A DNA stretch of 64,000 nucleotides, from the NCBI RefSeq assembly GCF_044704955.1, contig NC_091980.1, forward strand, positions 130,262,001 to 130,326,000, written 5' to 3'. Shown piece by piece: positions 229 through 62,150 of this stretch. Each line of letters opens with the position of its first letter. Position 1 is the first letter of the stretch. This DNA comes from Pristiophorus japonicus (taxonomy: Eukaryota). The position numbers and the translations under genes are program-made. The notes under the pieces are model-generated. The model saw only the letters and a program-made list of their open reading frames with translations, ran no database searches and had not been told where the DNA came from.

Positions 229-2792
229 ATGGCTTCCCAAGTGTGTCAGAACTACCACAAGGACTGTGAGGCTGCTGTCAACAAGCATATCAACATGGAG
301 CTCTGTTCCTCCTATGTTTATCTCTCCATGGTGAGTTGTGTATTCCTTGTTGCTGCATTCTGAAAAGTTGTTAATTCTCCAGTTCAATGAATTGGCTTTA
401 TGTTGTATTTCTCTGGACTTCCTTCCCTGGGGGAGCAGAATCTTTGGGCAGTGAGAACTTCAGGTGTGTAATACAGGGGATCTTGTTGAGTTCATGGACT
501 GCTCCTGACAGCAGCTGCCCTCTATTGAGGTTTAATATTGGAAACCAGCTCAGCTGCTGCCTGAGTGTGTGACAGAAGAGCACAAACCTGGTCAGGGGCG
601 TGTTGACCTGAAACAATGTTCAGTTTCAGTGGGGGACTGCAGTGAGTGAAATGTGGGTAGGTTCTCATTAGTGCTCTCATTAATTGGAGGTGATGTACTG
701 AGAATCCTGCTGTTGGAGCCCTGCTCACTGCTGAGATCTCTTGCACTATTGTTGTGTAAACTACTGGAGTGGAGGATTTTTCTCACTCCATGTCCAAACT
801 TTGATTAGAATGGAAGAATAATCATTTCTATAATGCCTTTCACTACCTTGGAATATCCAAAGTGCTTTGTAGCCAATGAAGGAGTTAAGTGTAGTTACCT
901 GTTATGTGGGAAATGCAGCAGCCAATTAGTGCACAGGATGCTCCCACAAACTGAAATGAGATAATGATCAGATCATCTGTTTTCGTGGTGTTGGTTGAGG
1001 GATAAATATTAGCCAGGACACTGCAGAGAGCTCTCTGCAGTAGTATTTAGAACATGGAGAAGGCTTGAGGAACCAATGGCTGACTCCAGTCATTCACTCA
1101 GATCATTGCTAATCTTGTACCTCAACTCCACCTCCTGCACTGTCCCCATATCCTTTGCTATCCAAAAGTCTATTGCTCTTGAATATACTCTGACTGGAAT
1201 TCTCTACCCCAGGAGTTGTGGAGGCTCAGAGTCATCACATTGAGTTTAGAAATTCCTCCTCATCTCAGTCCTCAATGACCCCTGGTTCTTGACTCTCCAG
1301 CAAGGGGAACCATCCTCCCTGCATCTAATCCTTCAAGTCCTGTAAGAATTTTGTACATGCCTAATGACATCACCTCTCATCCTTCGAACCTTGAGAATAG
1401 AGGCTCAGTCTGCTCAATCTCTCCTCCTTGATCTTTCACATGCACCTGATGACTGACACACTCTTGTGTGAATGACACAGTAGAGGAGGTATTGCTTATC
1501 CAGGAGTAGAATTTAGTTTGACTGGACATTAAATATAATCCTGAACTTTAGTTTTATATGTTCAACCAGCAAAGGAAAAACTTTCATCATGCTATGGGGA
1601 GGTGAGGCTCAACTCCAATTGATGAAGTCAATGGCATTTTGCTAGTTTACAAATGGTGTCTATCTTTTTAAGAATTCATTCATTCTGTGGAAAAATAACT
1701 CTTGCATTGTATATGAAGATCAAGGTCTAAATAGGCTGTCTTAATTTCTCTCTGCAGTCGTTCTATTTTGACCGGGATGATGTTGCCCTGTGTCACTTTG
1801 CTGAGTTCTTCAAGGAGCAGTCACATGAGGAACGTGAGCATGCTGAGAAACTGATGCAATTCCAGAATCGCCGTGGAGGACGGATCATCTTGTCTGACAT
1901 CAAGGTTTGGTTCAATTATCTAGTGGCCTTCTGTCTGGATACCCTTTGACCTGATTGATTCAAATACCTCCTAAAGCAATTGATTCCATGGTTGTGGTAG
2001 TGGAATTCAGTAATTCTATATTCCTGTGACACATTTCTGATTGCTTTTTTTAATCCTATTTTCCTTTGTATTGTCTTTTGTATTTTGTTTGTACATTGTA
2101 AGTGAACTGCCTGTGATTTTCCTCTTCAGAAACCAGAGCAGGATGAGTGGAGCAATGGTCTGGATGCAATGCAGAGAGCTCTGCAGATGGAGAAGAATGT
2201 GAACCAGAGTCTGCTGGATCTGCACAAAATCTCCACTGGGAGCACTGACCCTCATGTAAGTTCCTCATGTGGGTTTCTGGGCAACTTGGAGGTGGTGGAA
2301 TATTGCTATCCTTGAGCTGTTTCAAAAGTGCTCCATGCCCAATAGCTTTGTTTTTAAGGGGAGGGTGGTCTCTCTTGGGTTCTTCAGGGGGTGGGGGAGA
2401 GGACCATGAAGTTGGCCTACTGTGGACATTGAGACATAAATGGGTCCCAATGTTTCCAGGATCTAAGCTCACATTGTACAGTAGCTACTGGATCATTAGA
2501 GCAAATGTACATCAATTTCAATTGCCCTACCTGATCCTTCTCCACTCAGAGAATTAAAATCCTAACTTTGGAGGGGGGATGCTCTGATCCTTGATATCTG
2601 CTACTGGCCATAACTCATTTCCCTCTTTTCTTTCAGTTGTGTGACTTCCTGGAGACCCACTACTTGGATGAACAAGTGAAGATGATCAAGAAGCTTGGAG
2701 ATCACATCACCAACCTGAAGAGACTGGGAGCCCCTGAGAATGGCATGGGAGTGTACCTTTTTGACAGGCACACTCTGGGGGAGAGTGACTAA
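229..2792 (+). CDS. fth1: Ferritin heavy/middle-type subunit (FTH1-like), copy A1; exons 229-330, 1758-1904, 2130-2255, 2637-2792; 176 aa
   Basis: Manual splice gives [176 protein letters not shown]. Three phase-0 GT-AG introns lie at the conserved vertebrate ferritin positions. E27, Y34, E61, E62, H65, E107 and Q141 (human H numbering) are present. Exact orthology (H vs M) is not resolved, so the symbol is indicative only. Confidence 0.95.
815..1035 (-). mobile_element. Deu-domain SINE fragment (SacSINE1/AmnSINE1-like) in A intron 1, followed by a CR1 3' relic to ~1430; repeated at ~24735-24950 and ~49415-49630
   Basis: The reverse strand reads ...AATATTTATCCCTCAACCAACACCAC..AAACAGATG...TGTGGGAG...GTGCACTAATTGGCTGCTGCATTT...TTCATTGGCTACAAAGCACTTTGG, which resembles the Deu domain as I recall it. 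Confidence 0.65.
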
Positions 2793-2909
2793 ACTGACTG
2801 GGATCAAGCTTATTGTGTTTAGTACTTGCATTTATATAATCAGGCCCATATACTGTAGGGAATGAAGGCTTGTGACTTTGTGCAAAAAGAGCTGAAACCC
2901 ACAACAGTA

Positions 2910-2915
2910 AATAAA
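2910..2915 (+). terminator. Polyadenylation signal of A1 (equivalents: A2 28144-28149, A3 51491-51496)
   Basis: AATAAA ~118 bp after the stop, followed by a GT-rich tract (GGGCTGTGTTTTGTC). Confidence 0.75.
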
Positions 2916-4559
2916 CTGTTCAACATAGGGCTGTGTTTTGTCACCTTGTAAATTTGAGTGGTTACTTAAATGAAAAATAACACAAGTTGGTTTCCATCAA
3001 ACAAGAATTACACTGACCTGTGCAACATTTATATGGGATTCAGTCCTATGAAATGTGTTTTCGCCTTGTGTAATGTCTATGTATTGACTGGGCCATTCAG
3101 GCACCTGTTATAAGATCTAAAATGTTCAATGGTGTGTTTGGACAACTGACAGTCCCATGGCATATTGGCCCAGTGCCCAAAAGTCTGGTCAGAGGTATGT
3201 ATTGATAAGGTACAGAGATGTTTAGGAAGGCATGTCTGGAGCTTGGGACTGATAAGCTGTATACAATTACCTGTTCCAATGATCTGTCTTTGTACAAATG
3301 ACAAATCAATCCAACAAGATGTAACATCTGCTAAACTCAGGGCCAATTTGCCAGTAATTCATTGTTGCACCATTTCAGTCCAATGAAGAAAAAGTCCTGG
3401 ATTAGCTTCCTATTTAATCTATCTGCCTCGTGAACGAACAGCAGTTTGTATTCAATCGCTGCAACAGATCCTCTTCAGTTATGCAGGTCGTTCAGTAATG
3501 GGACTCACCACTGCTGCTATTGGCTTGCTGTTAAGCTTTGTAGGCAGAAAAGCAATATCTCAGCACACTGAACTCTGGGCACTACAATTGGGTGAGGAGC
3601 GAAAGCAACAGCTGTCATCAGCTTGCTGTCATAGCTTCAGTGCTGCGTGTGGATACCCTAGTCGTTCTGGGAGAGCTTCTCTTCTGTCTACTCCCCTAAT
3701 GGTTGAATAACTTGCCAACACAACCTCCATTCACATGAATAAGGTATTGCAAGACTAACGATACTCCAAAAACATTTAATACTTGGGGAAGGTGTAAATG
3801 TATTTAATTCCACAAAGCAAACGGAACAAGATGTTAAACCCATTTCTGGCCACAATGCCGAAGCACTCAATTTATAAGCCCATCAATTTTTTTTTTTCTT
3901 AGTAATGAAATTCACAGTGGTACTATCACCCTGGATTCGATCTCCATTTCTCTCCTCCGTGGCTATGAATGGATACAAATGGTACTGCTGCTCCAATAAT
4001 CCAGTGTTTACAAGTTATTTTTAGTAATTTAACTGAGAACTGTGTTGAGTGCAATTAAATAGCCATGCACAGACATTCCAGGTTAATGTCTTGGCAACAC
4101 TCAAGCGCCTTTTGGCTATCGATGTTACAAAATGTCATATATTGATGAGCCACAGTTCCACGAGTCGGCCTGGGTTTGCGTGCTGATGGGTTTGATAGCT
4201 TCATGTATCAACAAATCTCCAGCTCACTCGATGTGAAACTTTACAGGTGCTCGTGTTTTAAGAATTACTTACAATTTACAGCACAGGAAAAAGACCATTT
4301 GGGCCAACTGGGCCATGCTGTGGTTTATGCTCCATGTGAAACTTGTCCCACCCCACTTCATCTAGACCTATTAGCATATCCTTCTATTCCTTTCTCCTTG
4401 TGTTTATCTAGCTTTCCCTTAAATGCATCTATGCTCTTTGCATTCAGAGTTATTACTGCGGGTAGCTCAGTAAACGCACCGCTGCTGCTGTGGACTTTCT
4501 GTTAAGCTGTGTGGGTAAAGAAGTGAGCAACAGCTATAAAGACCCGCAATGTTTGAGAT

Positions 4560-7147
4560 CAAGGAAAGCATTTATTGTCTGTCACTAATTGCCTTTGAGA
4601 AGGTGCTGGTCAGCCATCTTCTGGAACCGCTGCAGTCTTGTGGTGAAGGTACTCCAACAGTGCTTTTCGGGAGGAAGTTCCTGGATTTTGCCGCAGTGAC
4701 GAAAAAGGAATGGTGATATATTTCCAAGTCAGGTTGGTGAGTATCGTGGAGGTGAACTTGCAGGCATTAGTATTCCCAAACTTCTGCTGCCCTTGTCCTT
4801 CTAATTGCTAGAGCTCGTGGGATGGCTTGCGCTGCTGAAAAAGCCTTGGCGAGTTGCTGCAGTGCATCTTGTCGATGGTACACACTGCAGCCATGGTGCA
4901 CCGGTGGTGGAAGCAGTGAATGTGGAAGGTGGTGGATGGGGTGCCAATCAAGCGGCCTGCTTTGTCCTGGATGGTGTCGAGCTTCTTGATGATTGCTGAA
5001 GCTGCACTCAGCCAGTCAAGTGGAGAGTATTCCACCACACACCTGACTTGTGCCTTGTCGATGCTGGAAAGACGTTAGGTGTCAGGAGGTGAGACACTCA
5101 CTGCAAAATACCCAGCCTCTGGTCTGCTCTTATTACCAGAGTAGTTATGCGGCTGGGCGAGTTCAGTTCCTGATCAGCGATGACCCCCAGGGGTTAATGC
5201 TGGGGAATTCAGCGACAGTGAATGTTAAGGGCAGGTGGTTAGTCTCTCGCTTATTGCAGATAGTCATTGCCTGGCACTTGTGTGGTGCCATTGTTACTTG
5301 CCCATTATCAGCCCCACACTGAATGTCATCCAGGTCTTGCTGCATGTGGGCATGGACTGCTTCATTTTCTGATGTCTTGCAAATGGAACAGAACACTGTG
5401 TAATCATCAGCAAACATTCCCACTCCTGGCCTTTATGATGGAGGGAAGTTCATTGATGAAGCAGCTTAAGATAGCTGGGCCAAGGACACTGCCCTGAGGT
5501 ATTCCTGCAGAGATGTCCTGGGGCTTAGATGATTGACCTCCAACAACCACTTCCTTTGTTCTAGATATGAGTCCAGCTCATCGAGAGTTTTCTATATTCG
5601 CATTGACTTCAATTTTACAAGGGCTACTTGATGCCGCACTCCATCAGATGCTGCCTTGCTGTGAAAGGCAGTCACTCTCTCCTCACCTGGAATTCAGTTC
5701 CTTTGTACATGTTTGGACCAAGGCTGCAATGAGATCAGGAGCCGAGTGGTCCTGGCACAACCCAAATTGGGCATCGGTGAGCAGATTATTGTCGACAAAA
5801 TCTTCCCTCACTTTGCTGAAGTTTGAGTGTAGACTGATGGGGCGGTAATTGGCCTGAATGGATTTGTCCTGCTTTTTCTGGACAGGACGTACCAGGGCAG
5901 TTTTTCACATTGTTGGGTAGATGCCAGTGTCTCTGTACTGGAACAGCTTGGCTAGAGGTGTGGCCATGAATTTACAGATTGTGGTGCAATACAATTCTGC
6001 AGTTGCTGATGACCCACAGTGCCTCATGGATGACCAGTTTTGAGCTGCTAGATCTGTTTTGAATCTATTCCATTTAACACTGTGGTCAAGCCACTCACCA
6101 CGAAGGAGAGTGTCCTCAGTGTGAAGACAAGACTTTGTCTCCACAAGGACTGTGTGGTGGTCACTGCTACCAATGCTGTCATGGACAGATGAATCTGTGA
6201 CAGGTCGATTGCTGAGGACAAGATCAGTAGGTTTTTCCCTTGTATTGATTCTCTCACCATCTATCAGAAGCCCAATCTGGATGTTATGTCCTTCAGGACT
6301 CAGCCCGCTTGCTCATTGCTGCCGAGCCCCTCTTGGTAATGGACATTGAAGCCTATTGCTAATATCAGTGCTTCTTCCAAGTGGCCTTCAACACTGAGGA
6401 GTACTGATTCATCAGCTGAGGGAGGGCGGTAGGTGTAAATCAGCAGGAGGTTTCCATTCCCAAGCTTGACCTGAACCCATGAGACTTGATAGGGTCCAGC
6501 GTAAATGTTCAGGACTCCTACCGCTACTCCCTCCCGACTATATACCACTGGGCCGCCACCTCTGGTGGGTCTGCCCTTCTGGTGGGACAGGACATACGCA
6601 GGGATGGTGAAGGAGGAATCTGGGACATTCGCTGAAAGGTATAATTCTGTGATTATGACTATGTCAGGCTGTTGCTTGGCTAACCTGTGGGACAGCTCTC
6701 CCCATTTAGGCACAAGATACCTGATGTTAGTGAGGAGGACTTTGCAGTGTCGACTGGGCTGGGTGTACCATTGTCATGTCAGAAGCCGGTGCCGAGGTCA
6801 ATGCCGGGTTGTCCATCCTGTTTTATTCTAATTATTGTTTCTCGCAGCGGTTTTTACAACTGATCGGCTTGCTTGGCAATTTCAGAGGGCAGTTACGACT
6901 CAACCACATTGCTTTGGGTTTGGAGTCATATCGGCCAGATTTCCTTCCCGAAGGACATTATTGAAGCAGGTGGGTTTCTATGACAAACCGATGGCTCCCT
7001 GGGCAAATTTACTGATACTAGCTTTTCATTCCAGATTTTAATTTCATGAACTGAATTTCAATTCCCCAGCTGCCGTGGTGGGACTTTGGATCATTAGTCC
7101 AGGCCTCTGAATTACTCGTCCAGTAACATAACCACTATGTTACCGTA
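4560..7147 (-). mobile_element. Decayed CR1-group LINE (APE endonuclease + RT fragments) with a tRNA-like 5' head
   Basis: Minus-strand fragments PKWGELSHRLAKQQPDIVIITE (APE), MFADD (RT motif) and KLDTIQDKAGRLIG (C-terminus), with a 3' AATAAATGC. Many frameshifts. Boundaries approximate. Confidence 0.8.
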
Positions 7148-7834
7148 TTCTTTGCATCTCTCAATGGCACTTTTGGAGTTTCGATGTCACCACAACTCGT
7201 ACGTTGATGAGACACAATTCTAAAAGTCATGTTGGGTTTTGCGTGCTGATGGGTTTGACGGCTTCATGTTTCAGACAAAACAAATTCTTCAGCTCACTCG
7301 ATGTGAAAAAACTTCACAGCTGCCCTTGTTTTAAGAATTACATAGAATTTACAGCACAGAAAAAGGCCATTCAGCCTGGCAAATTGCAGTGGTGAGCGGT
7401 TCTTCTTGAACGTAAAACACATCAATGATGAGGTGAGGAACCGAATGAGAAAAGATCAATTTAATAGTCTTTCAATCATGAGCATGGAGAGCGAAGTACT
7501 GAGAGGACTTGACTTCACACACTGAGCCTCCTCCCAACTTCATTTAACCCTATCAGCATATCCTTCCAATCCTTCCTCCCGCAGGTGTTCATCTAGCTTC
7601 CCCTTAAACGCGTCTATGCTTTTTGTCTCAACTATTCCTATTGATAGCGAGTTAAACATTCTAAACACTCATTGAGTAAAGAAGTTTCTTTTGAAGTCTC
7701 TCTTAGATTTTTAATTATAACTTTCTATATAATTCTATGGAAATCAGAACTTTGCACCATATACCAAGTGTTGTCTAGCCAAGGTGCTAAATAAACTTAC
7801 CATGCTGCACAGGGATGTGGTTCAGTTCACCTCA

Positions 7835-9157
7835 AATGTGTTCTCCCTGTGGCCGAGGAGCTCCTCCCAGAGTCACAGTGCGTATTTCGTCCCCTCCGGG
7901 TAACAACGGACATGATCTTTGCAGCACGCCAATTGCAGGAAAAATGCAGGGAGCAGCGCCAACCCTTATACATGGCATTTTTCGATCTTATAAAGGCCTT
8001 TGAGACTGTCGACCGTGAAGGTTTATGGAGCGTCCTCCCTCCATTTTGGATACCCACAAAAGTTTGTCAACATCCTTGGCCTGCTCCACGTCGACATGCA
8101 TGCCGTGATCCTTATCAGCGGATTTGTTACAGACCCATTCCACATCCGAAGCGGGGTCAAACAGGGTTGCGTCATCGCTCCAAAGCTCTTCTCAATCTTC
8201 CTCGCTGCCAACTCCACCTCACTGTCAACAAGCTTCCTGCTGGAGTGGAAATAATATACAGAATCAGTGGGAAGCAGTTTAACCTATGCCCTCTCCAGAC
8301 CAGTGCAAGACCACCCAAACCTCTGTCGTTGAACTGCAGTATGCGGACGACGCCTGCGTCTGCGCACATTCTGAGGCTGAACTCCAGAATTTAGTCGATG
8401 TCGTCACTGAGGCATATGAAATCATGGGCCTTGCACTTAACATCCATAAGGGAAAGTGCCTCCATCAGCCTGTCTTCGCCGCACAGCACGGCCCCCCGGA
8501 CATCAAGATTCACGGCGTGGCTCTCGACAATGTGGACCACTTCCTATACCGTGGGTGCCTCCTGTCAACAAAGGCAGACATCGATGCGGAGATTCAATAT
8601 CGCCTCCAGTGCGCCAGTGCAGCCTTCAGCTGCCTGAGGAAAGGAGTGTTCGAAGACCAGGCCCTCAAACCTACCACCAAGCTCACGCTCTACAGAACTG
8701 TAGTAATACCCACCCTACTGTATGGATCAGAGGCATGGACGACTTACAGAAGGCACATCTCGTCGCTGGAGATATATCACCAAAGATGCCTCCGTAAGAT
8801 GCTGTAAATTCCCTGGGAGGACAGATGCACCGACATCAGTGTCCTCGCGCAGGCTAACATCCCCAGCATTGAAGCACTAACCACATGCGATCAACTTTTC
8901 TGGGCAGGCCACTTCGTCAACATGCCAGACATGAGACTCTCTCAGCAACTGCTCTATGTGGAACTCCTTTATGGCAAACGAGCCAAAGTTGAGCAGTGGA
9001 AACGTTACAAGGACACCCTCAAAACCTCTCTGATGAAGTGCAACAGCACCACTGATGCCTGGGAGACCCTGGCCGAAGTCCATCCTAGTTGGAAAAAGTG
9101 TATCCGGGAGGGTGTTGAGCTCTTCGAATCTCAACGCTGCGAGCGTGAAGAGGTCAG
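7835..9157 (+). mobile_element. 5'-truncated RTE-clade (BovB-like) LINE, RT domain; 3' end deleted in this copy
   Basis: LPESQCVFRPLRVTTDMIFAARQLQEKCREQ...DLIKAFETV, LQYADD, PTLLYGSEAWT and MPDMRL.QLLY.EL are typical RTE ORF motifs. Frameshifted. Confidence 0.88.
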
Positions 9158-9199
9158 CTGCTGGGTTCAGCTGCAGGTATTCCTCGCTCTGAGCTCAGA

Positions 9200-10020
9200 A
9201 CTGCGCCAATGGTTAACACTCATCTGTGCCTTTCTATCTCTAGAATTGACTCTTTCAATGCTCTCCTGCTGGCCTTACATGCTCCATAAACTTAAGCTTA
9301 TCCAAAACTCTGCTGCCCGTATCCTAACACACACCGAGTCCCACTCACCCATGACCCCTGTGCTTGTGGACCATCATTGGCTCCCGGTCTGACAGCGCCT
9401 CAAATTCAAGATTCTTATCCTTGTATTAAATCCCACCATAGCCCTTCCCTCACCTCTTTTCCCAGCACATTGATAATATCGGTGCTGTTTCCTGCTCTCA
9501 CAATAAACTGGAACATTTAATTCACTATGTTCCCAATTTCCACCCTTCACTCACCTTCACATGGTCCATTTCTGTCACTTCACTTCCCTTTCTCGACTTC
9601 TCTGTCTATCAGACAAATATCCAATGAGTTGTTTGGATGTTGCTTCAAACCCGCAGATACCTGCAAATGACCAAACTACTGAACAATCCAGAACTCTTAA
9701 AAAGACACTGAATCGCAAACAACAGAGGATTCAATGAACCTTTCAAGGTGGCCATTAACTGGTCCAGGCAGAGCACGGTCGATAGGGTGTTCTCTCTGTC
9801 TGCCTGCCTTTGTTCCGCGGCTATATCCGTGCCCGGGTATCCCTGGATTGGGAGCATGTGGTGTCTGCCGGTATGCTTGAGGCTTTCCGTCATCGGAGGG
9901 CACCAGAGGGAGGGGAGCGCAGCGTGGATACAAGGAAATAATGTAAATTTTTTAAGTTTTTATGCTAGTTTTGTCATAATGTGGATCTGACAGTTTATTC
10001 CCCCTTATAAAGGGAGCACT
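9200..10020 (+). mobile_element. Mosaic of short retroelement relics: L2-like (~9200-9450), Penelope-like RT (~9460-9610), L1/Tx1-like 3' end (~9745-10020); repeated at ~34580-35410 and ~57920-58750
   Basis: LKLIQNSAARILT...TPVL..HHWLPV resembles an L2 C-terminus. NFHPSLTFTWSISVTSLPFLDFSV resembles a Penelope-like RT. KVAINWSRQ...FRGYIRARVSL resembles a Tx1-like C-terminus. Family names are from recall, not from a search. Confidence 0.55.
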
Positions 10021-10153
10021 TATGGTTTAAGTGTTTCCGATAGCTGAATTAAAATGCCCAAAGAATAGAGAATCCAATTAAACCTGTGACTCTGGATATT
10101 TGAACTGTGTTTGAGGAAAGTTCGGACAATTGAGATCCTCATTGAGATGTCAG

Positions 10154-10315
10154 CCAATGATGCTCATTCTTCGAAGATCTGATTGGCTCTGGGAGTCCAT
10201 CTCCCTCCTCCCTTTACTTGATTGGTGCTCTGAGAAGATGCAACTTCTGATTGGGTATTGATGACTGTCACTCATCATCAAGAGTGCCACACCCTGGATT
10301 ATCCCTCAGTATAAA
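10154..10315 (+). promoter_or_regulatory. Ferritin B1 promoter: CCAAT at 10154; ATTGG at 10182, 10221, 10250; TATAAA 10310-10315
   Basis: Motifs read directly. TATA is 83 bp upstream of the ATG. Visibly homologous to the A promoter. Confidence 0.7.
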
Positions 10316-10392
10316 TATTGGAGTTTGATATTAGTGAAATGTTATCTTTGTACTTTTAAAAAGTTTTTACTTTGGAAAAATAAAATATTAAG

Positions 10393-19186
<8,794 letters not shown>

Positions 19187-19301
19187 AGCTTCTGATCAGA
19201 ACTCTTGTTTATACAATATGTGTGAGACTCTGTCCTACATAGAATGATGGCTTTGTACAGGCTGAGACCTGGGCTCTTGATGTGAAATGTTATCAACTGT
19301 A

Positions 19302-19307
19302 AATAAA
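19302..19307 (+). terminator. Polyadenylation signal of B1 (equivalent: B2 44030-44035)
   Basis: AATAAA in the same GTAAATAAACTGTTCAA context as the A genes, with a GT-rich tract downstream. Confidence 0.75.
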
Positions 19308-19769
19308 CTGTTCAATATTGGACTGGGTTTTGTCTCCTTGCAATTAGTGGTTGCTTATTTTCCATTTACCGTAACTTGTTTGCAGCACAAGTATTGCACT
19401 AGGCTATGCAACAATCATACATTGGCCTCCTGTGCTGTAACCACTCAGCTGGCTCTCCAAGAACACTTCAGCTAGTCCTACTCCCTTGCATTTTCCCTGT
19501 AGCCCTGCAATGTTTTTCCTTCATGTACTTGTTCAATCCTATGATTGAAACTGCTTTCACCACCCTCTCAGCCAGTGCAATCCAGATATTAACCACTCAC
19601 TGCATAAAAGTTTATCCTCATGTCAGCTGTGGTACTTCTGCCAATTGTCTGAAATTTGTGTCTGCAGGTTCTCATCCCTTCTGCCAGTGTGAACAGTCCT
19701 ATAATTTTGCTCTTTGCTGGGATAATTTCAATATATTGACATTTTATATTCACAAACATAAATAGGAGC

Positions 19770-21660: not shown

Positions 21661-21689
21661 GACTTGTTGAAGACCTAATTTCAATTGTA

Positions 21690-21870
21690 CATGTATGTAT
21701 CATCTCAAAAATCTGGTTACTGTAAACTCACTCAGGTGCAACCTCATCCATCCTTATTCCAGCCCAAGAGTGTCAGTATGACAAAGACACCCAACTTATA
21801 TACAGGTGATCAAGCACACATGCCACATGTGTACAGCCCGATGATCTCCGACTCCCAAGCATTAATACAT
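21690..21870 (-). mobile_element. Possible short solo LTR relic; repeated at ~46413-46592
   Basis: Minus-strand TATA-like (GTATATAAG) then AATAAA (TTTATT in the unit 2 copy), with TGTA...TACA-like ends. No TSD confirmed. Confidence 0.35.
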
Positions 21871-22937: not shown

Positions 22938-23017
22938 TCATCATTTCAATCAGATTTAAATATTCATCATTTCAATCAGATTTAAATATTCATCATTTCG
23001 ATCAGATTTAAATATTC
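22938..23017. repeat. 26-bp tandem repeat x3 (TCATCATTTCAATCAGATTTAAATAT); repeated at 47620-47699
   Basis: Read directly. One mismatch in the third unit. Confidence 0.9.
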
Positions 23018-35784: not shown

Positions 35785-43914
<8,130 letters not shown>

Positions 43915-48649: not shown

Positions 48650-48756
48650 AATTGGTGCCTCAATTCAGGGAAGATTCCTGATTGGCTCTGAGGGATTTTC
48701 AATCATCATTGGTGATGTCATATCCTATTTGAATGCAGCTGTTCCATTAGTATAAA
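48650..48756 (+). promoter_or_regulatory. Ferritin A3 promoter (TATAAA 48751-48756; proximal CCAAT changed to CCATT)
   Basis: Homologous to the A2 promoter. Confidence 0.6.
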
Positions 48757-48826
48757 TACAGGAGCTTGTGCAAGACTGTGTGAGTTCCGGAACTTTGCAG
48801 AGGATAGTGAGATATAGATAGTGAAG

Positions 48827-51373
<2,547 letters not shown>

Positions 51374-53109
51374 ACCGACTGGGCTCAAGCTTATTGTGTT
51401 TTGTACTTGTATTTATATAATCAGGCCCCTATCCTGTAGGGAATGAAGGCTTGTGACTTTGTACAAAAAGAGCTGAAACCCATAACAGTAAATAAACTGT
51501 TCAACATTGGGCTGTGTTTTGTTGCCTTGTAAGTTTAAGTGGTTACTTATTTTTCATTTAACAGAAATTGGTTTCCATCAAACAAGAATTACACTGAGCT
51601 GTGCAACATTTATATGGGATTCAGTCCTATGAAATGTGTTTTCCCCTTGTGTAATGTCTATGTATTGACTGGGCCATTCAGGCACCTGTTATAAGATCTA
51701 AAATGTTCAATGGTGTGTTTAGACAACTGGCAGCCCTATGGGATATTGGCCCAGTGACAAAGTCTGGTCAGAGGTATGTATTGAGAAGGTAGAGATGTTT
51801 TGGAAGGTATCTTGGGACTGATAAGCTGTATACAATTACCTGTTCCAACGATCTATCTTTGTACAAATGACAATTCAATCCAACAAGATGTAACATCTGC
51901 TAAACTCAGGGCCAATTTGCCAGTAATTCATTGTTGCACCATTTCAGTCCAATGAAGAAAAAGTCCTGGATTCGCTTCCTATTTAGTCTCTCTGCCTTGT
52001 GAATGAACAGCAGTTTGTATTCAATAGCTGCAACAGATCCATTTCAGTTATCCAGCTGGTTCAGTAAAGGGACTCATCAATGCTGCTATAGGCTTGCAGT
52101 TAAGCTTTGTAGACAGAAAAGCAATATCTCAGCACATTGAACTCCGGGCACTACAATTGGGTGAGGAGGGAAAGCAACAGCTGTCATAACTTCAGTGCTT
52201 AGTGTGGATACTCTAGTGGTTCTGGAACAGCTTCTCTTCTGCCAGCTCCCATCATGGTTGAATAACTTACCAACACAACCTCCATTCACATGAATAAGGA
52301 ATTGGGTAAGGTATCGCAAGACTAATGATACTCTAACAACATTTAATAGTTGGTGAAGGAGTAAATGTATTTAATTCCACAAAGCAAAAGGCACAAGATG
52401 TCAAACCCATTTCTGGCCACAATACTCAATTATAAGCCTATCAATTTTTTTTGTTATTACCATTGTGAATTTCATTACTTTCACCCTGGATTAGATCTCC
52501 ATTTCTCTCCTTCGTGGCGATGAATGGATACAAATGGTATTGCTGCAGTTCCAATAATCCAGTGTTTACAAGTTATTTTTAGGAATTTAGCTGAGAACTG
52601 TGTTTGCAATTAAATTGCGAAGTACAGATATTCCACGTTCATGTCTTGGCAACACTCAAGCGCCTTTCGGATATCGATGTTACAAAATGTCATATTGATG
52701 AGTCACAGTTCCACGAGTCGGCCTGGGTTTGCGTGTTGAAGAATTTGATAGCTTCATGTATCAACAACTTTCCAGCTCACTCGATGTGAAACTTTACAGG
52801 TGCTCGTATTTTGAGAATTTCTTACAATTTACAGCACAGGAAAAATATCATTTGGGCCAACTTGCCCATGTTGTTGTTTATGCTCCATATGAAACCTGTC
52901 CCACCCCACTTCATCGAGACCTATTAGCATATCCTTCTATTCCTTTCTCCCTTGTGTTTATCGAGCTTTCCCTTAAATGCATCTATGCTCTTTGCATTCA
53001 GAGTTATTACTGCGGGTAGCTCAGTAAACGCACCGCTGCTGCTGTGGATTTTCTGTTAAGCTGTGTGGGTAAAGAAGTGAGTAACAGCTATAGAGACCCG
53101 CAATGTTTG

Positions 53110-55702
53110 AGATCAAGGAAAGCATTTATTGTCCGTCACTAATTGCTTTTGAGAAGGTGCTGGTCAGCCATATTCTTGAACCGCTGCAGTCTTGTGGAGA
53201 AGGTACTCCAACAGTGCTTTTCGGGAGGGAGTTCCTGGATTTTGCTGCAGTGACGAAAAAGGAATGGTGATATATTTCCAAGTCAGGTTGGTGTGTAACG
53301 TGGAGGTGAACTTGCAGGCGATAGTATTCCCAAACTTCTGCTGCCCTTGTCCTTCTAATTGCTAGAGCTCGTGGGATGGCTTGTGCTGCTGAAAAAGCCT
53401 TGGCGAGTTGCTGCAGTGCATCTTGTCGATGGTACACACTGCAGCCATGGTGCACCGGTGGTGGAAGCAGTGAATGTGGAAGGTGGTGGATGGGGTGCCA
53501 ATCAAGTGGCCTGTTTTGTCCTGGATGGTGTCGAGCTTCTTGATGATTGCTGAAGCTGCACTCAGCCAGTCAAGTGGAGAGTATTCCACCACACACCTGA
53601 CTTGTGCCTTGTCGATGCTGGAAAGACTTTAGGGTGTCAGGAGGTGAGACACTCCCTGCAAAATACCCAGCCTCTGGCCTGCTCTTATTACCACAGTATT
53701 TATGCAGCCGGGCTAGTTCAGTTCCTGATCAGCGATCACTCCCCAGGGGTTAAAGCCGGGGAATTTAGTGGCAGTGAATGTTAAGGGCAGGTGGTTAGAC
53801 TATCACTTTTTGCAGATAGCCATTGCCTGGCACTTGTGTGCTGCCATTGTTACTTGCCCATTATCAGCCCCACACTGAATGTCATCCAGGTCTTGCTGCA
53901 TGTGGGCATGGACTGCTTCATTTTCTGATGTCTTGCAAATGGAACAGAACACTGTGTAATCATCAGCAAACATTCCCACTTCTGGCCTTTATGATGGAGG
54001 GAAGTTCATTGATGAAGCAGCTTAAGATAGTTGGGCCAAGGACACTGCCCTGAGGTATTCCTGCAGCGATGTCCTGGGGCTGAGATGATTAACCTCCAAC
54101 AACCACTTCCTTAGTGCTAGATATGAGTCCAGCTCATCGAGAATTTTCTATATTCGCATCGACTTCAATTTTACAAGGGCTACTTGATGCCGCACTGCAT
54201 CAGATGCTGCCTTGCTGTGAAAGGCAGTCACTCTCACCTCAACTGGAATTCAACTCCTTTGTACAGGTTTGGACCAAGGCTGCAATGAGATCAAGAGCCG
54301 AGTGGTCCTGGCACAACCCAAACTGGGCATCGGTGAGCAGATTATTGGCGACAAAATCTTCCCTCACTTTGCTGATGATTGAGTGTAGACTGATGGGGTG
54401 GTAATTGGCCTGAATGGATTTGTCCTGCTTTTTCTGGACAGGACGTACCAGGGCAATTTTTCACATTGTCGGGTAGATGCCAGTGTCTCTGTACTGGAAC
54501 AGCTTGGCTAGAGGTGTGGCCATAAATTTACAGATTGTGGTGCAATACAATTCTGCAGTTGCTGATGACCCACAGTGCCTCATGGATGACCAGTTTTGAG
54601 CTGCTAGATCTGTTTTGGATCTATTCCATTTAACACTGTGGTCAAGCCAGTCACCACGAAGGAGGGTGTCCTCAGTGTGAAGACAAGACTTTGTCTCCAC
54701 AAGAACTGTGTGGTGGTCACTGCTACCAATACTGTCATGGACAGATGAATCTGTGACAGGTAGATTGCTGAGGGCAAGATCAGTCGGTTTTTCCCTTGTG
54801 TTGATTTTCTCACCATCTGTCGGAAGCTCAATCTGGATGCTATGTCCTTCAGGACTCAGCCCGCTTGCTCAGTGCTACCGAGCCCCTCTTGGTGATGGAC
54901 ATTGAAGCCTATTGCTATATCAGTGCTTCTTCCAAGTGGCCTTCAACATGGAGGTGTACTGATTCATCAGCTGAGGGAGGGTGGTAGGTGGTAATCAGCA
55001 GGAGGTTTCCATGTCCAAGCTTGACCTAAACCCATGAGACTTGATAGGGTCCAGATTAAATGTTCAGGACTCCTATCGCTACTCCCTCCCGACTGTATGC
55101 CACTGAGCCGCCACTTCTGGTGTGTCTGCCCTTCTGGTGGGACAGGACATACGCAGGGATGGTGAAGGAGGAATCTGGGACATTGGCCGAAAGGTATGAT
55201 TCTGTGATTATGACTATGTCAGGATGTTGCTTGACTAACCTGTGAGACAGCTCTCCCCATTTAGGCACAAGATACCAGATATTAGTGAGGAGGACTTTGC
55301 AGGGTCGACTGGGCTGGGTGTACCATTGTCAAGTCAGAAGCCGGTGCCGAGGTCAATGCCGGGTTGTCCATCCTGTTTTATTCGAATTATTGTTTCTCGT
55401 GACGGTTTGTTATAACTGATCAGCTTGCTTGGCCATTTCAGAGGGCAGTTAAGACTCAACCACATTGCTTTGGGTTTGGAGTCATATCGGCCAGATTTCC
55501 TTCCTGAAGGACATTAGTGAAGCAGATTGGTTTTTATGACAATCCGATAGCTCCCTGGGCAACATTACTGATACTAGCCTTTTATTCCAGATTTTAATTT
55601 AATTAACTGAATTTCAATTCCCCAGCTGCCGTGGTGGGACTTTGGATTATTAGTCCAGGCCTCTGAATTACTTGTCCAGTAACTTAACCACGATGTTACC
55701 GC
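53110..55702 (-). mobile_element. CR1-group LINE, unit 3 copy
   Basis: Colinear with 4560-7147. Confidence 0.8.
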
Positions 55703-56387
55703 ACTCTTTGCATCTCTCAATGGCACTTTTGGGCTATCGATGTCACCACAATTCATACATTGATGAGTCACAATTCTACAAGTCATGTTGGGTTTTGCGT
55801 GCTGATGAGTTTCACGGCTTCATGTTTCAGATAAAACAAATTATTCAGCTCACTCAATGTGAAAAACTTTACAGATGCCCTTGTTTTAAGAATTACATAG
55901 AATTTACAGCACAGAAAAAGGCCATTCAGCCTGGCAAATTGCAGTGGTGAGCGATCCTTCTTGAACGTAAAATGTATCTAGGATGAGGTGAGGAACCGAA
56001 TGAGACAAGATCGATTTAATTGTCTTTCAATCATGAGCATGGAGAGCGAAGTACTGAGAGGACTTGATTCACACACTGAGCCTCCTCCCAACTTCATTTA
56101 ACCCTATCAGCATATCCTGCCAATCCTTCCTCCCTCATTTGTTTATCCAGCTTCACCTTAAACGCGTCTATGCTTTTTGTCTCAACTATTCCTTTTGATA
56201 GCGAGTTAAAAATTCTGAACACTCTCTGAGTAAAGAAGTTTCTTTGAAGTCTCTCTTAGATTATTAATTCTAACTTTCTATATAATTCTATGGAGATCAG
56301 AACTGTGCGCAATACTCCAAGTGTTGTCTAGCCAAGGTTCTGTATAAATTTAACATGCTGCACAGGGATGTGGTTCAGTTCACCTCA

Positions 56388-57880
56388 ACTGTGTTCTCCC
56401 TGTGGCCGAGGAGCTCCGTCCGGAGTCACAGTGTGTATTTCGTCCCCTACGGGTAACAACGGACATGATCTTTGCAGCACGCCAATTGCAGGAAATATGC
56501 AGGGAGCAACGCCAGCCCTTATACATGGCATTTTTCGATCTTATAAAGGCCTTTGAGACTGTCGACCGTGAGGGCTTATGGAGCGTCCTCCCTCCATTTT
56601 GGATACCCCCAAAAGTTTATCAACATTCTTCGCCTGCTCCACGTCGACATGCATGCCGTGATCCTTATCAGCGGATTTGTTACAGACCCATTCCACGTCC
56701 GAAGCTGGGTCAAACAGGGCTGCTTCATCGCTCCAAAGATTTTCTCAATCTTCCTCGCTGCCAACTCCACCTTACTGTCAACAAGCTTCCTGCTGGAGTG
56801 CAATTAAACTACAGAATCAGTGGGAAGCAGTTTAACCTATGCCCTCTCCAGACCAGTGCAAGACCACCCAAACCTCTGTCGTTGAACTGCAGTATGCGGA
56901 CGACGCCTGCGTCTGCGCACATTCTGAGGCTGACAGGATTTAGTCGATGTCGTCACTGAGGCATATGAAATCATGGGCCTTGCACTTAACATCCATAAGG
57001 GAAAGTGCCTCCATCAGCCTGTCTTCGCCGCACAGCACGGCCCCCAGACATCAAGATTCACGGCGTGGCCCTCGACAATGTGGATCACTTCCCATACCGC
57101 GGGAGCCTGCTGTCAACAAAGGCAGACATCGATGCGGAGATTCAATATCGCCTCCAGTGCACCAGTGCAGCCTTCGGCTGCCTGAGGAAAGGAGTGTTCG
57201 AAGACCAGGCCCTCAAACCTACCACCAAGCTCACGCTCTACAGGACTGTAGTAATACCCACCCTACTGTATGGATCAGAGGCATGGACGACTTACAGAAG
57301 GCACATCTCGTCGCTGGAGATATATCACCAAAGATGCCTCCGTAACATGCTCTAAATTCCCTGGGAGGACAGATGCACCGACATCAGTGTCCTCGCGCAG
57401 GCTAACATCCCCAGCATTGAAGCACTAACCACATGCGATCAGCTTTTCTGGGCAGGCCACTTAGTCCACATGCCAGACATGAGACTCTCTAAGCAACTGC
57501 TCTATGCGGAACTCCTTTATGGCAAACGAGCCAAAGTTAAGCAGCGGAAACGTTACAAGGACACCCTCAAAACCTCTCTGATGAAGTGCGACAGCACCAC
57601 TGATGCCTGGGAGACTCTGGCCGAAGTCCATCCTAGTTGGAAAAAGTGTATCCGGGAGGGTGTTGAGCTCTTCGAATCTCAACGCTGCGAACGTGAAGAG
57701 GTCAGGCAGCGGAAGGAAGGTGTGGTAAATCAGTGACACCCACCCCCTTCCCCCGATGAATATCTGTCCCATCTGTGACAGGGTCTGTGGCTTTCATGTT
57801 GGACTGTTCAGCCACCAACGAACTCACTTTAGGAGTGAAAGCAAGTCTTCCTCGATGCCGAGTGACTGCCTATGATGATG
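56388..57880 (+). mobile_element. RTE-clade LINE, unit 3 copy with 3' end
   Basis: As in unit 2. Confidence 0.88.
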
Positions 57881-58883
57881 GGTTCAGCTGCAGGTATTCC
57901 TCGCACTGAGCTCAGAACTGCGCCAATGGTTAACACTCATCTGTGCCTTTTTATCTCTAGAATTGACTATTTCAATGCTCTCCTGCTGGCCTTACATGCT
58001 CCATAAACTTAAGCTTATCCAAAACTCTGCTGCCCGTATCCTAACACACACCTAGTCTCACTCACCCATGACCCCTGTGCTTGTGGACCATCATTGGCTC
58101 CCGGTCTGACAGCGCCTCAAATTCAAGATTCTTATCCTCGTATTAAATCCCACCATAGCCCTTCCCTCACCTCTTTTCCCAGCACATTGATAATATCGGT
58201 GCTGTTTCCTGCTCTCACAATAAACTGGAACATTTAATTCACTATGTTCCCAATTTCCACCCTTCACTCACCTTCACATGGTTCATCTTGGTCACTTCAA
58301 TTCCCTTTCTCGACTTCTCTGTCTATCATCTCAGTCTATCAGACAAATATCCAATGAGTTGTTTGGATGTTGCTTCAAACCCGCAGATACCTGCAAATGA
58401 CCAACCAACTGAACAATCCAGAACTCTTAAAAAGACACTGAATCGCAAACAACAGAGGATTCAATGAATCTTTCAAGGTGGCCATTAACTGGTCCAGGCA
58501 GAGCACGGTCGATAGGGTGTTCTCTCTGTCTGCCTGCCTTTGTTCCGCGGCTATATCCGTGCCCGGGTATCCCTGGATTGGGAGCACGCGGTGTCTGCCG
58601 GTATGCTTGAGGCTTTCCGTCATCGGAGGGCACCAGAGGGAGGGGAGCGCAGAGTGAATACAGGGAAATAGTGTAAATTTTTTAAGTTTTTATGTTAGTT
58701 TTGTCATAATGTGGATCTGACAGTTTATTTCCCCTTATAAAGGGAGCACTTATGGTTTAAGTGTTTCCGATAGCTGAATTAAAATGCCCAAAGAATAGAG
58801 AATCCAATTAAACCTGTGACTCTGGATATTTGAACTGTGTTTGAGGAAAGTTCGGACAATTGAGATCCTCATTGAGATGTCAG

Positions 58884-59045
58884 CCAATGATGCTCATTCT
58901 TCAAAGATCTGATTGGCTCTGGGAGTCCATCTCCCTCCTCCCTTTACTTGATTGGTGCTCTGAGAAGATACAACTTCTGATTGGGTATTGATGACTGTCA
59001 CTCATCATCAAGAGTGCCACACCCTGGATTATCCCTCAGTATAAA
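58884..59045 (+). promoter_or_regulatory. Ferritin B3 promoter (CCAAT boxes, TATAAA 59040-59045)
   Basis: Near-identical to the B1 and B2 promoters. Confidence 0.65.
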
Positions 59046-59122
59046 TATTGGAGTTTGATATTAGTGAAATGTTATCTTTGTACTTCTAAAAAGTTTTTAC
59101 TTTGGAAAAATAAAATATTAAG

Positions 59123-62100
59123 ATGGCTTCGCAAGTGCGTCAGAATTACCACAAGGACTGTGAGGATGCTGTCAACAAGCAGATCAACATGGAGCTCTAT
59201 TCCTCCTATGTTTATCTCTCTATGGTGAGTTTTGTATTTTTTGCCCCTTTACAATGGAGACTATGTAATGTGAATTTATGAAATCCTGTGCTGTACCCAG
59301 CCCACCTATTTCTCTCTTTCTGCCCACCTGCCCCCAGCCCTGAATCTATGCAGTGAGTTCACTTTAAAGCTATAATATGATACAATTTATCTTAATTTGT
59401 ATTTATTAACAAATTCTCTTTGTTTCTTGCAGCAGCTGTATCATCTGATTATTTTGATTCTTTTTTTTCCTGCGATCTTGAGCTTGATGAAGTTTATTTG
59501 GAATACATTCTGTACACAATGCAAGGAATTCAGAATTTGTATCCTCATTCTAAATCACTGCATGGATTTTCCTTACCTTGCTGGTTCAATGGGTGATGTC
59601 ATAAAAATAAATCTAGGCCATTTCGGAGGGATGTCAGGAAGTATTCTTTCCCACCAGTGTGGTGGAAATCTGAAACACTTTCTTTCTCAGCCATCCCTCA
59701 CCTCCACGGGGAGGATGGGAAGAAAGTGTTACAAATGTTTCTGCTTTCCTCCTGTTCCTAGTATTTCTCACCACTAATTTTAAGTACCAGTTTGTATCCT
59801 TCTGTCTTTCCTCTAACTTTTTGCAATCATAAAGCAGATAGTTAATTATCAATTGTCTGTGCTCAGTGGACTCTCCCTTAACCCCTGTGACCTTCACCAA
59901 GCACCCTCAAATTCTGAGGGGTTCTCCTAACTTTTATTCTGTGGTCTCTGGTTCTCCTCTACAATGCTTTGATTTGTGTAGACTGTCAAATTAATGCTGC
60001 TTGTGGTAGTTTTAGTTCCTTGGCATGAATGCAGCCAGTAAAACTCGGTTAGTTTTTCTTTTTTTTTATATATGAATTCTGCATTGGGACTAGATCTAGT
60101 TTAGGCAATTGCTTTTACTGCCTCTCAACTAGCCTGTACAAAATGTATTTGGGTTAATAAACAATTATTATTGGAGCATGCTACTGGTGACCAGGGTATA
60201 AATCTTGTGGCAATTCCTTCACCTAATTTCCAGAGCTGCAATGAATATTGGGTGCCAAGATTCAGGTTCCAGTTTTAAGCATGTTCAATCAAAGCTGAAT
60301 TGGTGATCATGAGTGATGCAGCACAGGAGGCCATTCAGTCCATTGTGCCTTGCTGAATGTTGGTTGGAGCGATACAACTGTTTCCATAGCCTACAAATTT
60401 TTCTAAATCACGTAAGTGGATGAGAATGGGGAATTAGTAATGGGCAACATAGAGATGGCAGAAAATCTGAACAAATATCTTGTATCTGTTTTGACAGTAG
60501 AAGACAATAACAACATTCCAATGGTGGATAGTCAAGGGGCTATTGGGGGAGGTACTTAATGCAATAACAATCACCTGAGGAAGTAGTACTCAGTAAGATA
60601 ATTGGGCTCAATTATGTCCTGATGGCTTGCATCCTCGGGCCTTGAGAAGCAGGGATTGTGGATGTATTGGTTATAATTTACCAAAATTACCTGGATTCTG
60701 GGGAGGTCCCAGCAGATTGGAAAGCTGCAAATGTAATGCCCCTTCCTTTTTTTTTGAAATAAAAGAAACTTTTGACCAGTTAGCCTAATATCTGATAGGG
60801 AAAATGTTGGAGTCCATTATTAACATCGCAGGGACATTTGGAAAAGCAAAATTTGATCAGGCAGAGTCGGCATGGATTTGTGAGGGGAAGTCGTGTTTGA
60901 CAAATTTGCTGGAATTCTTTGAGGATGTCATGAACAGGGTGGATGAAAGTGAACCAGTGGCTGTTTTGTATTTGGACCTCCAGAAGGTATTTGAGAAGGT
61001 GCCACAAAAGATTACGGCACAAGATGAAAGTTCACAGGCTTTGGGGGTAATATATTAGCATGGATAGAGGATTGGCTAAAGAACCGAGTCAGGATAAATG
61101 GTTCATTCTCTGGTTGGCAACCAGGATCTAGTAGAGTGCCGCAAGGATCAGTGCTGGGACCCCAACTATTTACAATCTATATTACATTCTGTCCCTCCTT
61201 CCAAGTCGGTTACGTCGCCTAGTTTGTTCCTCCCAACTTTGTATCAGTAATGTGTGAGGAGAACACACTTCTGCAGAAGGACATAGGCAGGCTAAGTGAG
61301 TGGGCAAAAATTTGACTGTAGGAAAGTGAGGTCATGCACTTTAGCAGAACAAGAATCAAAGAGCAAATGTTTATTGAAATGGAGCAAGATTGCAAAGTGC
61401 CGCAGTACAGCAGGAGCGGAGGGGGGTGGGGTGTGGTGGGTGCCTCTGCTCATTTGGAATTCAGAAGAATGAGGAACTTATTGAAGTGTATAAGATTGAG
61501 GGGGCTTGACTGGGTGGATACAGAGGATGTTTCCACTGATGGGGAGACTACAACTAGAAGGCATGATCTTAAAATAAGGGGTTTCCCATTTACAACTGAA
61601 ATATCTTGAGCGTTGTCAATCTGTGGAATTCACTGCCTGAGCTGTGGAAAGCTGAGACATTGAATAAATTTAAGACTGTAATACAGTTTCTTAAATGCTA
61701 AGGGGTTATGTGGGGATGAGTCCATGATCAGATCAGCCATAATCTTAAATGGTGGCACAGGCTCTGAGCTGTGTGGTCTACTCCTGTTCATATTTCTCAT
61801 GTTAGGTTTCCCTATGGCTGGAGCTGAGATTATCCAATGTATTTACCAGGTTAATTGAGTAGGTTCTAGTTTCCATAAATATACATACAAGTTCAGTGAG
61901 ACTGAGCTCTTGAATCAAGAAAAATGAGTTTGGCTTCATGTACAGTGCCCATGCTGATGGGTCTGGCATGCAATAATCAACTACACTTCTGATCCCTCCG
62001 CAGTCCTTCTACTTTGACCGGGATGATGTTGCCCTGCGTCACTTTGCTGAGTTCTTCAAGGAGCAGTCACATGAGGAACGTGAGCATGCTGAGAAACTGA

Positions 62101-62150
62101 TGGAATTCCAGAATCGGCGTGGAGGCCGAATCATCTTGGCAGACATCAAG
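59123..62150 (+). CDS. fth1: Ferritin subunit, copy B3, partial (exons 59123-59224 and 62004-62150; exons 3-4 lie beyond the window)
   Basis: Exons 1-2 translate identically to B2 and have GT-AG sites. Confidence 0.92.

What the first reader, a model, noticed from the sequence alone, without database searches (positions are those of the whole stretch)
229..62150. Amplified alternating A/B ferritin gene array (at least 6 intron-containing copies in 64 kb)
Seen: a ~24 kb two-gene cassette is tandemly repeated, the units are closely similar, and the array runs off at least the right edge. Known: ferritin is a 24-mer that can co-assemble from different subunits, and mammalian FTH1 and FTL are single intron-containing loci whose extra copies are mostly retrocopies. 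Inference: amplifying an A+B pair fixes a 1:1 gene dosage and may supply a high-output or tissue-specific heteropolymer. Whether this array is already described cannot be judged without a search.
Basis: partly seen in the sequence, partly recalled or inferred. Interest (0 to 1): 0.8.

Follow-up and report, generated by a model that had tools for sequence, protein, structure and literature searches.

The report
Shark ferritin megacluster lacking iron switch
The six ferritin genes are a small slice of a 5.6-million-base cluster of about 300 near-identical shark ferritin gene copies; no sampled copy has the RNA switch that ties ferritin synthesis to iron, so the cluster likely mass-produces iron-storage protein in eggs, and such clusters were already reported briefly in other sharks.

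Summary
In detail: six four-exon ferritin genes alternate A/B in ~24-kb units 93-97% alike. They are not haplotype artefacts: 604 gap-free kb hold 48 gene models, 26 intact. The block lies inside a 5.6-Mb cluster; exon probes give 297 and 327 hits.

The heteropolymer reading fails. A and B are 93% identical, both keep the H-type ferroxidase ligands, and A:B is far from 1:1 outside this block. None of 82 sampled genes has an iron-responsive element (IRE); 33 of 47 outside the block carry a decayed one. Six spliced retrocopies point to germ-line transcription.

A Greenland shark preprint already reports such a cluster as ovary-specific 'FTH1/FTL' copies. New here: the genes form their own shark clade with remnants at the M-ferritin locus, not the FTH1 locus. 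The Lys62 partner family of other sharks was not found, and the cluster is assembled on another chromosome. Expression in this species is unshown. Three look-ups of earlier scan notes gave nothing relevant.

The parts
153..160 (+). TATA box of A1, 76 nt before the ATG; CCAAT-type boxes upstream; leader without an IRE
   Evidence: sequence
229..2792 (+). Ferritin A1, intact; exons 229-330, 1758-1904, 2130-2255, 2637-2792; protein identical to P0019
10310..10317 (+). TATA box of B1, 83 nt before the ATG; B-class leader (IRE relic too decayed to score in this copy)
10393..19186 (+). Ferritin B1, intact; exons 10393-10494, 13274-13420, 18598-18723, 19031-19186; protein identical to P0007
13942..18448 (-). 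Broken LTR retroelement (RNase H then integrase, Ty3/Gypsy order) in B1 intron 2; LTRs about 13942-14146 and 18242-18448; LTR pairs found in 14 B copies in 464 kb
24145..28026 (+). Ferritin A2, intact; exons 24145-24246, 25679-25825, 26061-26186, 27871-28026; 1.3-kb insertion in intron 3
35785..43914 (+). Ferritin B2, intact; exons 35785-35886, 38647-38793, 43326-43451, 43759-43914
39313..43176 (-). Same LTR element in B2 intron 2, about 0.6 kb shorter than in B1
48827..51373 (+). Ferritin A3, doubtful: GC donor at intron 3, 3-nt in-frame deletion in exon 3; exons 48827-48928, 50352-50498, 50720-50842, 51218-51373
59123..64000 (+). Ferritin B3: exons 59123-59224 and 62004-62150, first LTR at about 62666-62871; the gene is completed beyond the window and is intact
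1..64000 (+). About 2.6 units of the A+B repeat, a sub-block of the 5.6-Mb cluster G000:C4:127,780,390-133,405,859

Best explanation
This is part of a shark multigene ferritin cluster of about 300 copies with no working iron-responsive element in any sampled copy, which likely serves to mass-produce catalytically active ferritin in growing eggs regardless of iron level. Shown: copy number, intact frames in a third to a half of sampled copies, a full ferroxidase ligand set, no N-terminal extension, a TATA box and CCAAT boxes, a decayed IRE, purifying selection and spliced retrocopies. Inferred: the family arose beside the IRE-bearing M-type ferritin gene and lost translational repression when the IRE loop decayed. 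It grows and shrinks by unequal crossing-over (birth and death), and selection acts on total output. The product would be a cytosolic 24-mer of interchangeable subunits that stores iron for the embryo and limits iron-driven oxidation of yolk lipid. The A/B alternation is likely a by-product: a 24-kb segment holding one gene of each of two old promoter/intron lineages was amplified about twenty times, broken copies included.
For: Copy counts 297 and 327, controls 0. Cluster ends and ferritin-free flanks. 26 of 48 models intact in 604 kb; 14 of 43 complete models intact in samples elsewhere. dN/dS 0.21-0.30 among intact copies. Ferroxidase ligands kept in 35-37 of 37 intact genes. No IRE hairpin in 82 leaders, while the M gene passes the same test; 33 of 47 leaders outside the block match the IRE 5' arm at 8/10 or better, against 1.0% in shuffles. 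Rfam finds IREs at FTH1 (C14) and the M gene (C19) but none in the window. 8 of 11 dispersed processed fragments examined are cluster-type, 6 of them join exons, one has a poly-A tail and one carries a B-class leader. Contigs of two runs from other organisms join the exons at the same introns. The Greenland shark cluster is reported ovary-specific (bioRxiv 10.1101/2024.09.09.611499, section read). Ferritin transcripts are abundant in zebrafish follicles (PMC1488847, passages).
Against: No RNA or protein data for this organism; the ovary link is borrowed from another shark and from one paragraph of a preprint. Retrocopies show germ-line or early-embryo mRNA, not ovary specifically, and housekeeping FTH1 also left 3 of the 11 fragments. 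About half to two thirds of the sampled copies are damaged, and private changes in intact copies have dN/dS 0.43, so constraint per copy is loose. The IRE relic is not significant in the window's own six genes, and relic-bearing copies are not independent. Met at position 144 (34 of 37) differs from H and M chains, so catalytic rate is untested.
Confidence: 0.6

Rival explanations
1. Copy number is mostly neutral: a few copies do the work, and the rest accumulate by unequal crossing-over in a large, repeat-rich genome.
For: 22 of 48 models in the block and 29 of 43 complete models sampled elsewhere are damaged or partial. The same lesions were re-duplicated. Transposon insertions are tolerated in introns.
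Against: dN/dS 0.21-0.30 and nearly invariant catalytic residues across 37 intact copies. Multi-copy clusters are kept in at least ten shark species.
Confidence: 0.2
2. The expansion is a body-wide antioxidant adaptation (depth, pressure or longevity), as proposed for fthl27 in hadal snailfish.
For: Hadal snailfish has 14 fthl27 copies, highly expressed in most tissues, that lower ROS in cells (PMC10746142, passages). IRE loss would allow constitutive expression in any tissue.
Against: The cluster is shared by bamboo, zebra, horn, cat and whale sharks (their shallow habitats are recalled). The one expression report says ovary-specific.
Confidence: 0.1
3. One reading: the A+B pair is amplified as a unit to fix a 1:1 ratio for a functional heteropolymer.
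For: Strict alternation over ~0.6 Mb, with 12 intact A and 11 intact B in 464 kb. A and B keep distinct promoters, introns, 3' UTRs and 21 diagnostic coding sites. In my sample, intact A-class genes occur only in this block.
Against: 93% protein identity with the same catalytic set. The ratio is about 1:4 outside the block. A third class and broken genes ride along in the repeats.
Confidence: 0.08
4. The array is an assembly artefact (haplotypes or collapsed and re-expanded repeats).
For: Read depth was not testable. The cluster is bounded by scaffold gaps. Some large internal duplications were not examined.
Against: 36 distinct CDS among 37 intact copies; units differ by 1-7% and by nested insertions; no gap in 604 kb. 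Other shark assemblies have the same family in many copies.
Confidence: 0.02

Closest known systems
Greenland and great white shark ferritin clusters (bioRxiv 10.1101/2024.09.09.611499; section 6 read whole, other passages, supplements not seen)
   Same: Hundreds of ferritin copies in a multi-megabase cluster (there 104 'FTL' + 118 'FTH1' in about 4 Mb, ovary-specific); shark-wide and old.
   Different: Here about 300 copies of one catalytic family. Identity to macaque H is 74%, not the 90% or more that the preprint states for its copies. True FTH1 is one IRE-bearing intron gene on C14 among the loci found. No Lys62 family was found. A third to a half of sampled copies are intact, versus more than 85% full length there. 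The preprint passages do not mention IRE loss, phylogeny or A/B sub-blocks.
Teleost fthl27 tandem expansion in hadal snailfish (PMC10746142, passages)
   Same: Tandem, intron-locus expansion of an H/M-like ferritin linked to high output.
   Different: 14 copies with broad expression, against about 300 copies; orthology to fthl27 was not tested.
Vertebrate H, M and L cytosolic ferritins (mammalian FTH1/FTL, amphibian and fish M)
   Same: Same four-exon layout as this genome's H and M genes, 176 aa, H-type ferroxidase and three-fold-channel residues.
   Different: Own clade (UFBoot 99-100), no IRE, Met at position 144 (Ala/Ser in the H and M chains aligned, Leu in the L chains).
Egg and yolk ferritins of amphibians, snails and schistosomes (as cited in PMC1488847; originals not read)
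   Same: Ferritin stocked in eggs; schistosome ferritin mRNAs lack IREs (title of a cited paper).
   Different: Those are not known to me as megaclusters; snail yolk ferritin is secreted with a signal peptide (recalled), while these proteins have no N-terminal extension.

Membership tests
Eukaryotic maxi-ferritin subunit | Ferritin domain and close similarity to solved 24-mer ferritins | tested here: met
   PF00210 on P0007 and P0019; E about 1e-90 to human H and 1e-86 to frog M chains
Catalytic (H/M-type) subunit | Ferroxidase ligands E27, Y34, E61, E62, H65, E107, Q141 (human H numbering, recalled; mapped by alignment) | tested here: met
   37, 37, 36, 35, 37, 37 and 37 of 37 intact copies
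Catalytic (H/M-type) subunit | Measured ferroxidase activity and 24-mer assembly | not testable with these tools
   needs recombinant protein
FTH1 orthologue | Groups with vertebrate H chains | tested here: inconclusive
   Best trees keep it apart from the H clade, but an AU test does not reject grouping with H (p 0.33)
FTH1 orthologue | Occupies the FTH1 locus and carries a 5' IRE | tested here: not met
   FTH1 with IRE is on C14; cluster remnants lie beside the M gene on C19; no IRE in 82 leaders
L chain (FTL-type) | Loss of ferroxidase ligands (e.g. Lys62) | tested here: not met
   E62 in 35 of 37, K62 in none; the L chains aligned have K62
H/L-type heteropolymer pair (A versus B) | Two subunits with complementary functions | tested here: not met
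   163/176 identical, same ligand set
IRE/IRP-regulated ferritin mRNA | C-bulge, 5-bp stem and CAGUGN loop in the 5' leader | tested here: not met
   0 of 82; positive control passes; Rfam negative
Shark ferritin cluster of the Greenland shark preprint | Hundreds of clustered full-length ferritin genes shared among sharks | tested here: met
Shark ferritin cluster of the Greenland shark preprint | Ovary-specific expression | not testable with these tools
   no RNA holder listed for this organism
Shark ferritin cluster of the Greenland shark preprint | Two subunit families in about equal numbers | tested here: inconclusive
   No Lys62-family exon found: best match 79% and of the catalytic family, but only 150 of 364 candidates were scored, with one exon as query
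Retrocopy array | No introns, poly-A tails | tested here: not met
   three introns in every complete cluster gene

The most novel reading that the evidence does not exclude
Sharks evolved their own egg ferritin system at the M-ferritin locus: two amplified families that shed iron control, one catalytic (Met144) and one with Lys62, re-inventing the H/L division of labour independently of mammals. This lineage lost the Lys62 partner, moved the catalytic family to another chromosome and inflated it to about 300 copies. That is a natural experiment on whether an L-like subunit is needed for bulk iron storage.
Probability: 0.3. Interest if true: 0.68.

Novelty: new variant of a known kind. Interest (0 to 1): 0.45.

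Why it matters
Vertebrate ferritin is taught as one H and one L gene under IRE control. A cluster of hundreds of intron-bearing copies without IREs shows a different route to output, by gene dosage, and gives a testable lead on how sharks provision very large eggs and long gestations with iron. It also corrects annotation: databases and the one preprint label these genes FTH1, FTL or 'oocyte isoform' by best hit, while the locus and tree point to a shark-specific family. That matters for claims linking ferritin copy number to longevity or depth in single species. The A/B repeat itself is of minor interest.

Tried and rejected
Expression in this organism: no RNA holder listed, which is no evidence either way. 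The four runs laid are contigs from coded organisms holding 0.20-0.31 of the words; X19 and X20 showed no spliced joint. Synteny through glycogen synthase: three loci (C13, C14, C19), none near the cluster, not decisive. Parent clade by phylogeny: unresolved; AU tests reject neither H (p 0.33) nor L (p 0.44) as sister, nor Lys62 family + L (p 0.50). For that test 20 of 54 rows were dropped to save time. In the first tree the invertebrate outgroups were badly trimmed; this was fixed, and the residue table was off by one and redone. The genome-wide Rfam IRE search scored only 82 candidates, so its six hits are a floor. Rfam at E up to 10 did not detect the relic in six loci. Gene conversion between A and B: exons are 92-96% alike, flanks mostly 45-75%, fourfold sites differ at 18%; a few swapped diagnostic sites exist. 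This is suggestive only, since constraint on synonymous sites is not excluded. No ferritin was found on C19 in 92.80-93.05, 93.21-93.26 or 93.33-93.48 Mb. Structure and complex prediction were not run: co-assembly of two 93%-identical ferritins would pass by likeness to solved cages. Literature: ten searches found only the Greenland shark preprint on shark ferritin clusters; subscription papers and bioRxiv supplements were not searchable. Scan look-ups returned nothing relevant.
Full report
Observation. A self-comparison shows a repeat of 23.3-25.4 kb at 93-97% identity. Six ferritin genes alternate A, B, A, B, A, B, with four exons of 102, 147, 126 and 156 nt. A1, B1, A2 and B2 are intact, A3 has a GC donor and an in-frame deletion, and B3 is cut by the edge. 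A1 and B1 translate to proteins identical to UniRef entries P0019 and P0007, which the database labels Pristiophorus japonicus, a sawshark. So these genes are already auto-annotated as ferritin-like.

Extent. The window is G000:C4:130,262,001-130,326,000 in a 5.9-Gb genome. An exact 20-mer of exon 4 has 273 hits. With one mismatch, 22-mers of exon 2 and exon 4 give 297 and 327 hits, controls 0. Only the first 100-150 places are listed per search; of these 96 of 100, 140 of 150 and 149 of 150 lie in one cluster. Its outermost genes found are at C4:127,780,390 and 133,405,859, with 60 kb and 54 kb of ferritin-free flank checked. I read 604 contiguous kb around the window: 48 gene models, 22 A, 23 B-type and 3 of a third class; 26 intact, 20 damaged or doubtful, 2 partial; no gap. 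Elsewhere I sampled 10-kb stretches, most chosen on known exon hits: 58 models, 14 intact, 29 damaged, 15 partial or cut by the sample edge. A rough extrapolation (inference) is of the order of 100-130 intact genes.

Not an artefact. In 464 kb the best self-match of 8 kb or more is 98.8%, and most are near 97%. Units differ by nested insertions, and 37 intact copies give 36 distinct coding sequences. Most B copies share one broken Gypsy-order element in intron 2; its LTR pairs differ by 3.9-7.5% in 14 copies, so it likely inserted before the amplification. One segment of broken genes recurs three times with shared lesions, which shows passive copying by unequal crossing-over.

What the proteins are. 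All keep the H-type ferroxidase ligands (35-37 of 37 per site) and have Met at position 144 in 34 of 37 (numbering recalled, mapped). Identity to macaque H is 129/175; A to B is 163/176. dN/dS is 0.30 within A, 0.30 within B, 0.21 between them and 0.24 among the other intact copies. In trees the family, with members from the shark species sampled and one sawfish protein, is a clade (UFBoot 100, 99) apart from H, M and L. Its sister cannot be fixed, and AU tests reject neither H nor L.

Where it came from. FTH1 with an IRE lies on C14. On C19 the order is: four decayed cluster-type genes, a divergent gene Y, a gene X with an Arg-rich N-terminal extension, an M-type gene with an IRE, and an L-like gene. 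A receptor phosphatase gene lies about 130 kb further on. In seven other sharks, cluster genes and gene X share a contig, judged by matching contig lengths. A horn shark gene model fuses cluster genes to gene X, and a catshark model fuses one to that phosphatase. So the ancestral cluster likely lay at the M locus. Here it is assembled on C4. Caveat: 200-N gaps bound it on both sides. The left gap has the same satellite on both sides, and the cluster's GC (44.6%) matches the C4 flank (45.3%) rather than C19 (51.2%); I put a real move at about 0.7.

Regulation. Of 82 genes with exon 1, 61 have an exact TATA motif, most often 76-83 nt before the ATG, and most have 3-4 CCAAT-type boxes. None has an IRE hairpin, while the M gene passes the same test. 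Outside the A/B block, 33 of 47 leaders match the 5' arm of the M gene's IRE at a fixed place (shuffles 1.0%), with the loop and 3' arm changed. These copies are related, so this is one event, and in the window's own genes the trace is not significant. A and B stand for two old promoter/intron lineages whose flanks barely align while exons are 92-96% alike; exon-limited gene conversion is a likely but unproven cause.

Expression. No RNA run of this organism was listed. Of 11 dispersed processed fragments examined, 8 derive from the cluster and 3 from FTH1; 6 of the 8 join exons, one ends in poly-A and one includes a B-class leader. Heritable retrocopies need germ-line or early-embryo mRNA (established knowledge). 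Contigs of runs X1 and X5, from other organisms and only guessed to be RNA, join the exons at these introns.

The missing partner. Other sharks carry a second multi-copy family on the same contigs. All 44 full-length members I aligned have Lys62, as L chains do. This is probably what the Greenland shark preprint counts as 'FTL' (inference). A search of G000 with its exon 2 found nothing above 79% identity, and the hits I could place were the catalytic family; 150 of 364 candidates were scored. Loss in this lineage is likely but rests on that one exon.

Prior knowledge. bioRxiv 10.1101/2024.09.09.611499 (section 6 read whole, other passages; supplements not seen) reports 155 FTL and 179 FTH1 copies, clusters syntenic with the white shark, and ovary-specific expression. 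PMC10746142 (passages) reports 14 fthl27 copies in hadal snailfish. PMC1488847 and PMC11719527 (passages) give background on ferritin in eggs and on the IRE. Ten searches found no paper on IRE loss, clade identity or this genome's cluster; subscription journals are outside that library.

Verdict. The 1:1 heteropolymer idea is not supported. The best reading is a dosage-amplified, iron-uncoupled egg ferritin family under birth-and-death evolution (0.6). The additions worth following are the decayed IRE, the shark-specific identity, the apparent loss of the Lys62 family and the move to another chromosome. Interest 0.45; new variant of a known kind.

Noticed in passing
G000:C19:93,128,522-93,141,732 (L068, L069); P0255, P0062, P0253-P0260, P0262, P0265, P0266: An intron-containing ferritin with an Arg-rich N-terminal extension that looks like a mitochondrial presequence, conserved at 198-275 aa in sharks and rays, with no IRE hit. 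Mammalian mitochondrial ferritin is intronless (PMC11719527 passage), so this may be an independent origin. Targeting was not tested.
   Followed up: partly
P0377, P0378, P0381, P0384, P0391 and cluster members (other sharks): A second multi-copy shark ferritin family with Lys62 in 44 of 44 aligned proteins and Glu141 in 27; annotated 'middle subunit-like' but L-like at the catalytic site.
   Followed up: partly
G000:C19:93,109,378-93,121,556 and 93,189,325-93,203,518: Two further single ferritin genes at the parent locus: gene Y (altered ligands at 61 and 65, TATA context like the cluster's) and a divergent L-like gene lacking most ferroxidase ligands.
   Followed up: partly
L022-L025 (C10, C12, C17, C18): Four dispersed copies of a roughly 60-90-nt piece of the M gene's 5' leader with an intact IRE, without coding sequence.
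   Followed up: no
G000:C4:129.05-129.50 Mb and 132.3-133.1 Mb: Hit spacings suggest large internal duplications (about 261 kb, about 123-129 kb) and blocks of opposite strand; forward and reverse copies are nearly equal, 164 and 163. Not checked for haplotype origin.
   Followed up: no
window 7795-9392 and its copies; 11640-13020: LINE-type reverse transcriptase fragments between the genes (Pfam RVT_1) and a repeat-like stretch in B intron 1.
   Followed up: no
window 22197-22410 and 46943-47092: 33/66-bp GC-rich tandem repeat, about ten times denser at the C19 locus than in the cluster.
   Followed up: partly
L111:2736-2974 (-): U2 snRNA-like copy inside the ferritin cluster (Rfam 52.3 bits).
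   Followed up: no
P0192, P0243, P0302: Vertebrate-type ferritins deposited under bacterial names on contigs under 1 kb, probably contamination; not used.
   Followed up: no
G000 C13:66.4, C14:168.5-168.7, C19:97.4-97.5 Mb: Three glycogen synthase loci, two on the chromosomes that carry single-copy ferritin genes.
   Followed up: no
P0372 (sawfish): A cluster-type ferritin in a ray, on the contig of gene X, suggesting that the family predates the shark-ray split; its cluster has one member.
   Followed up: partly
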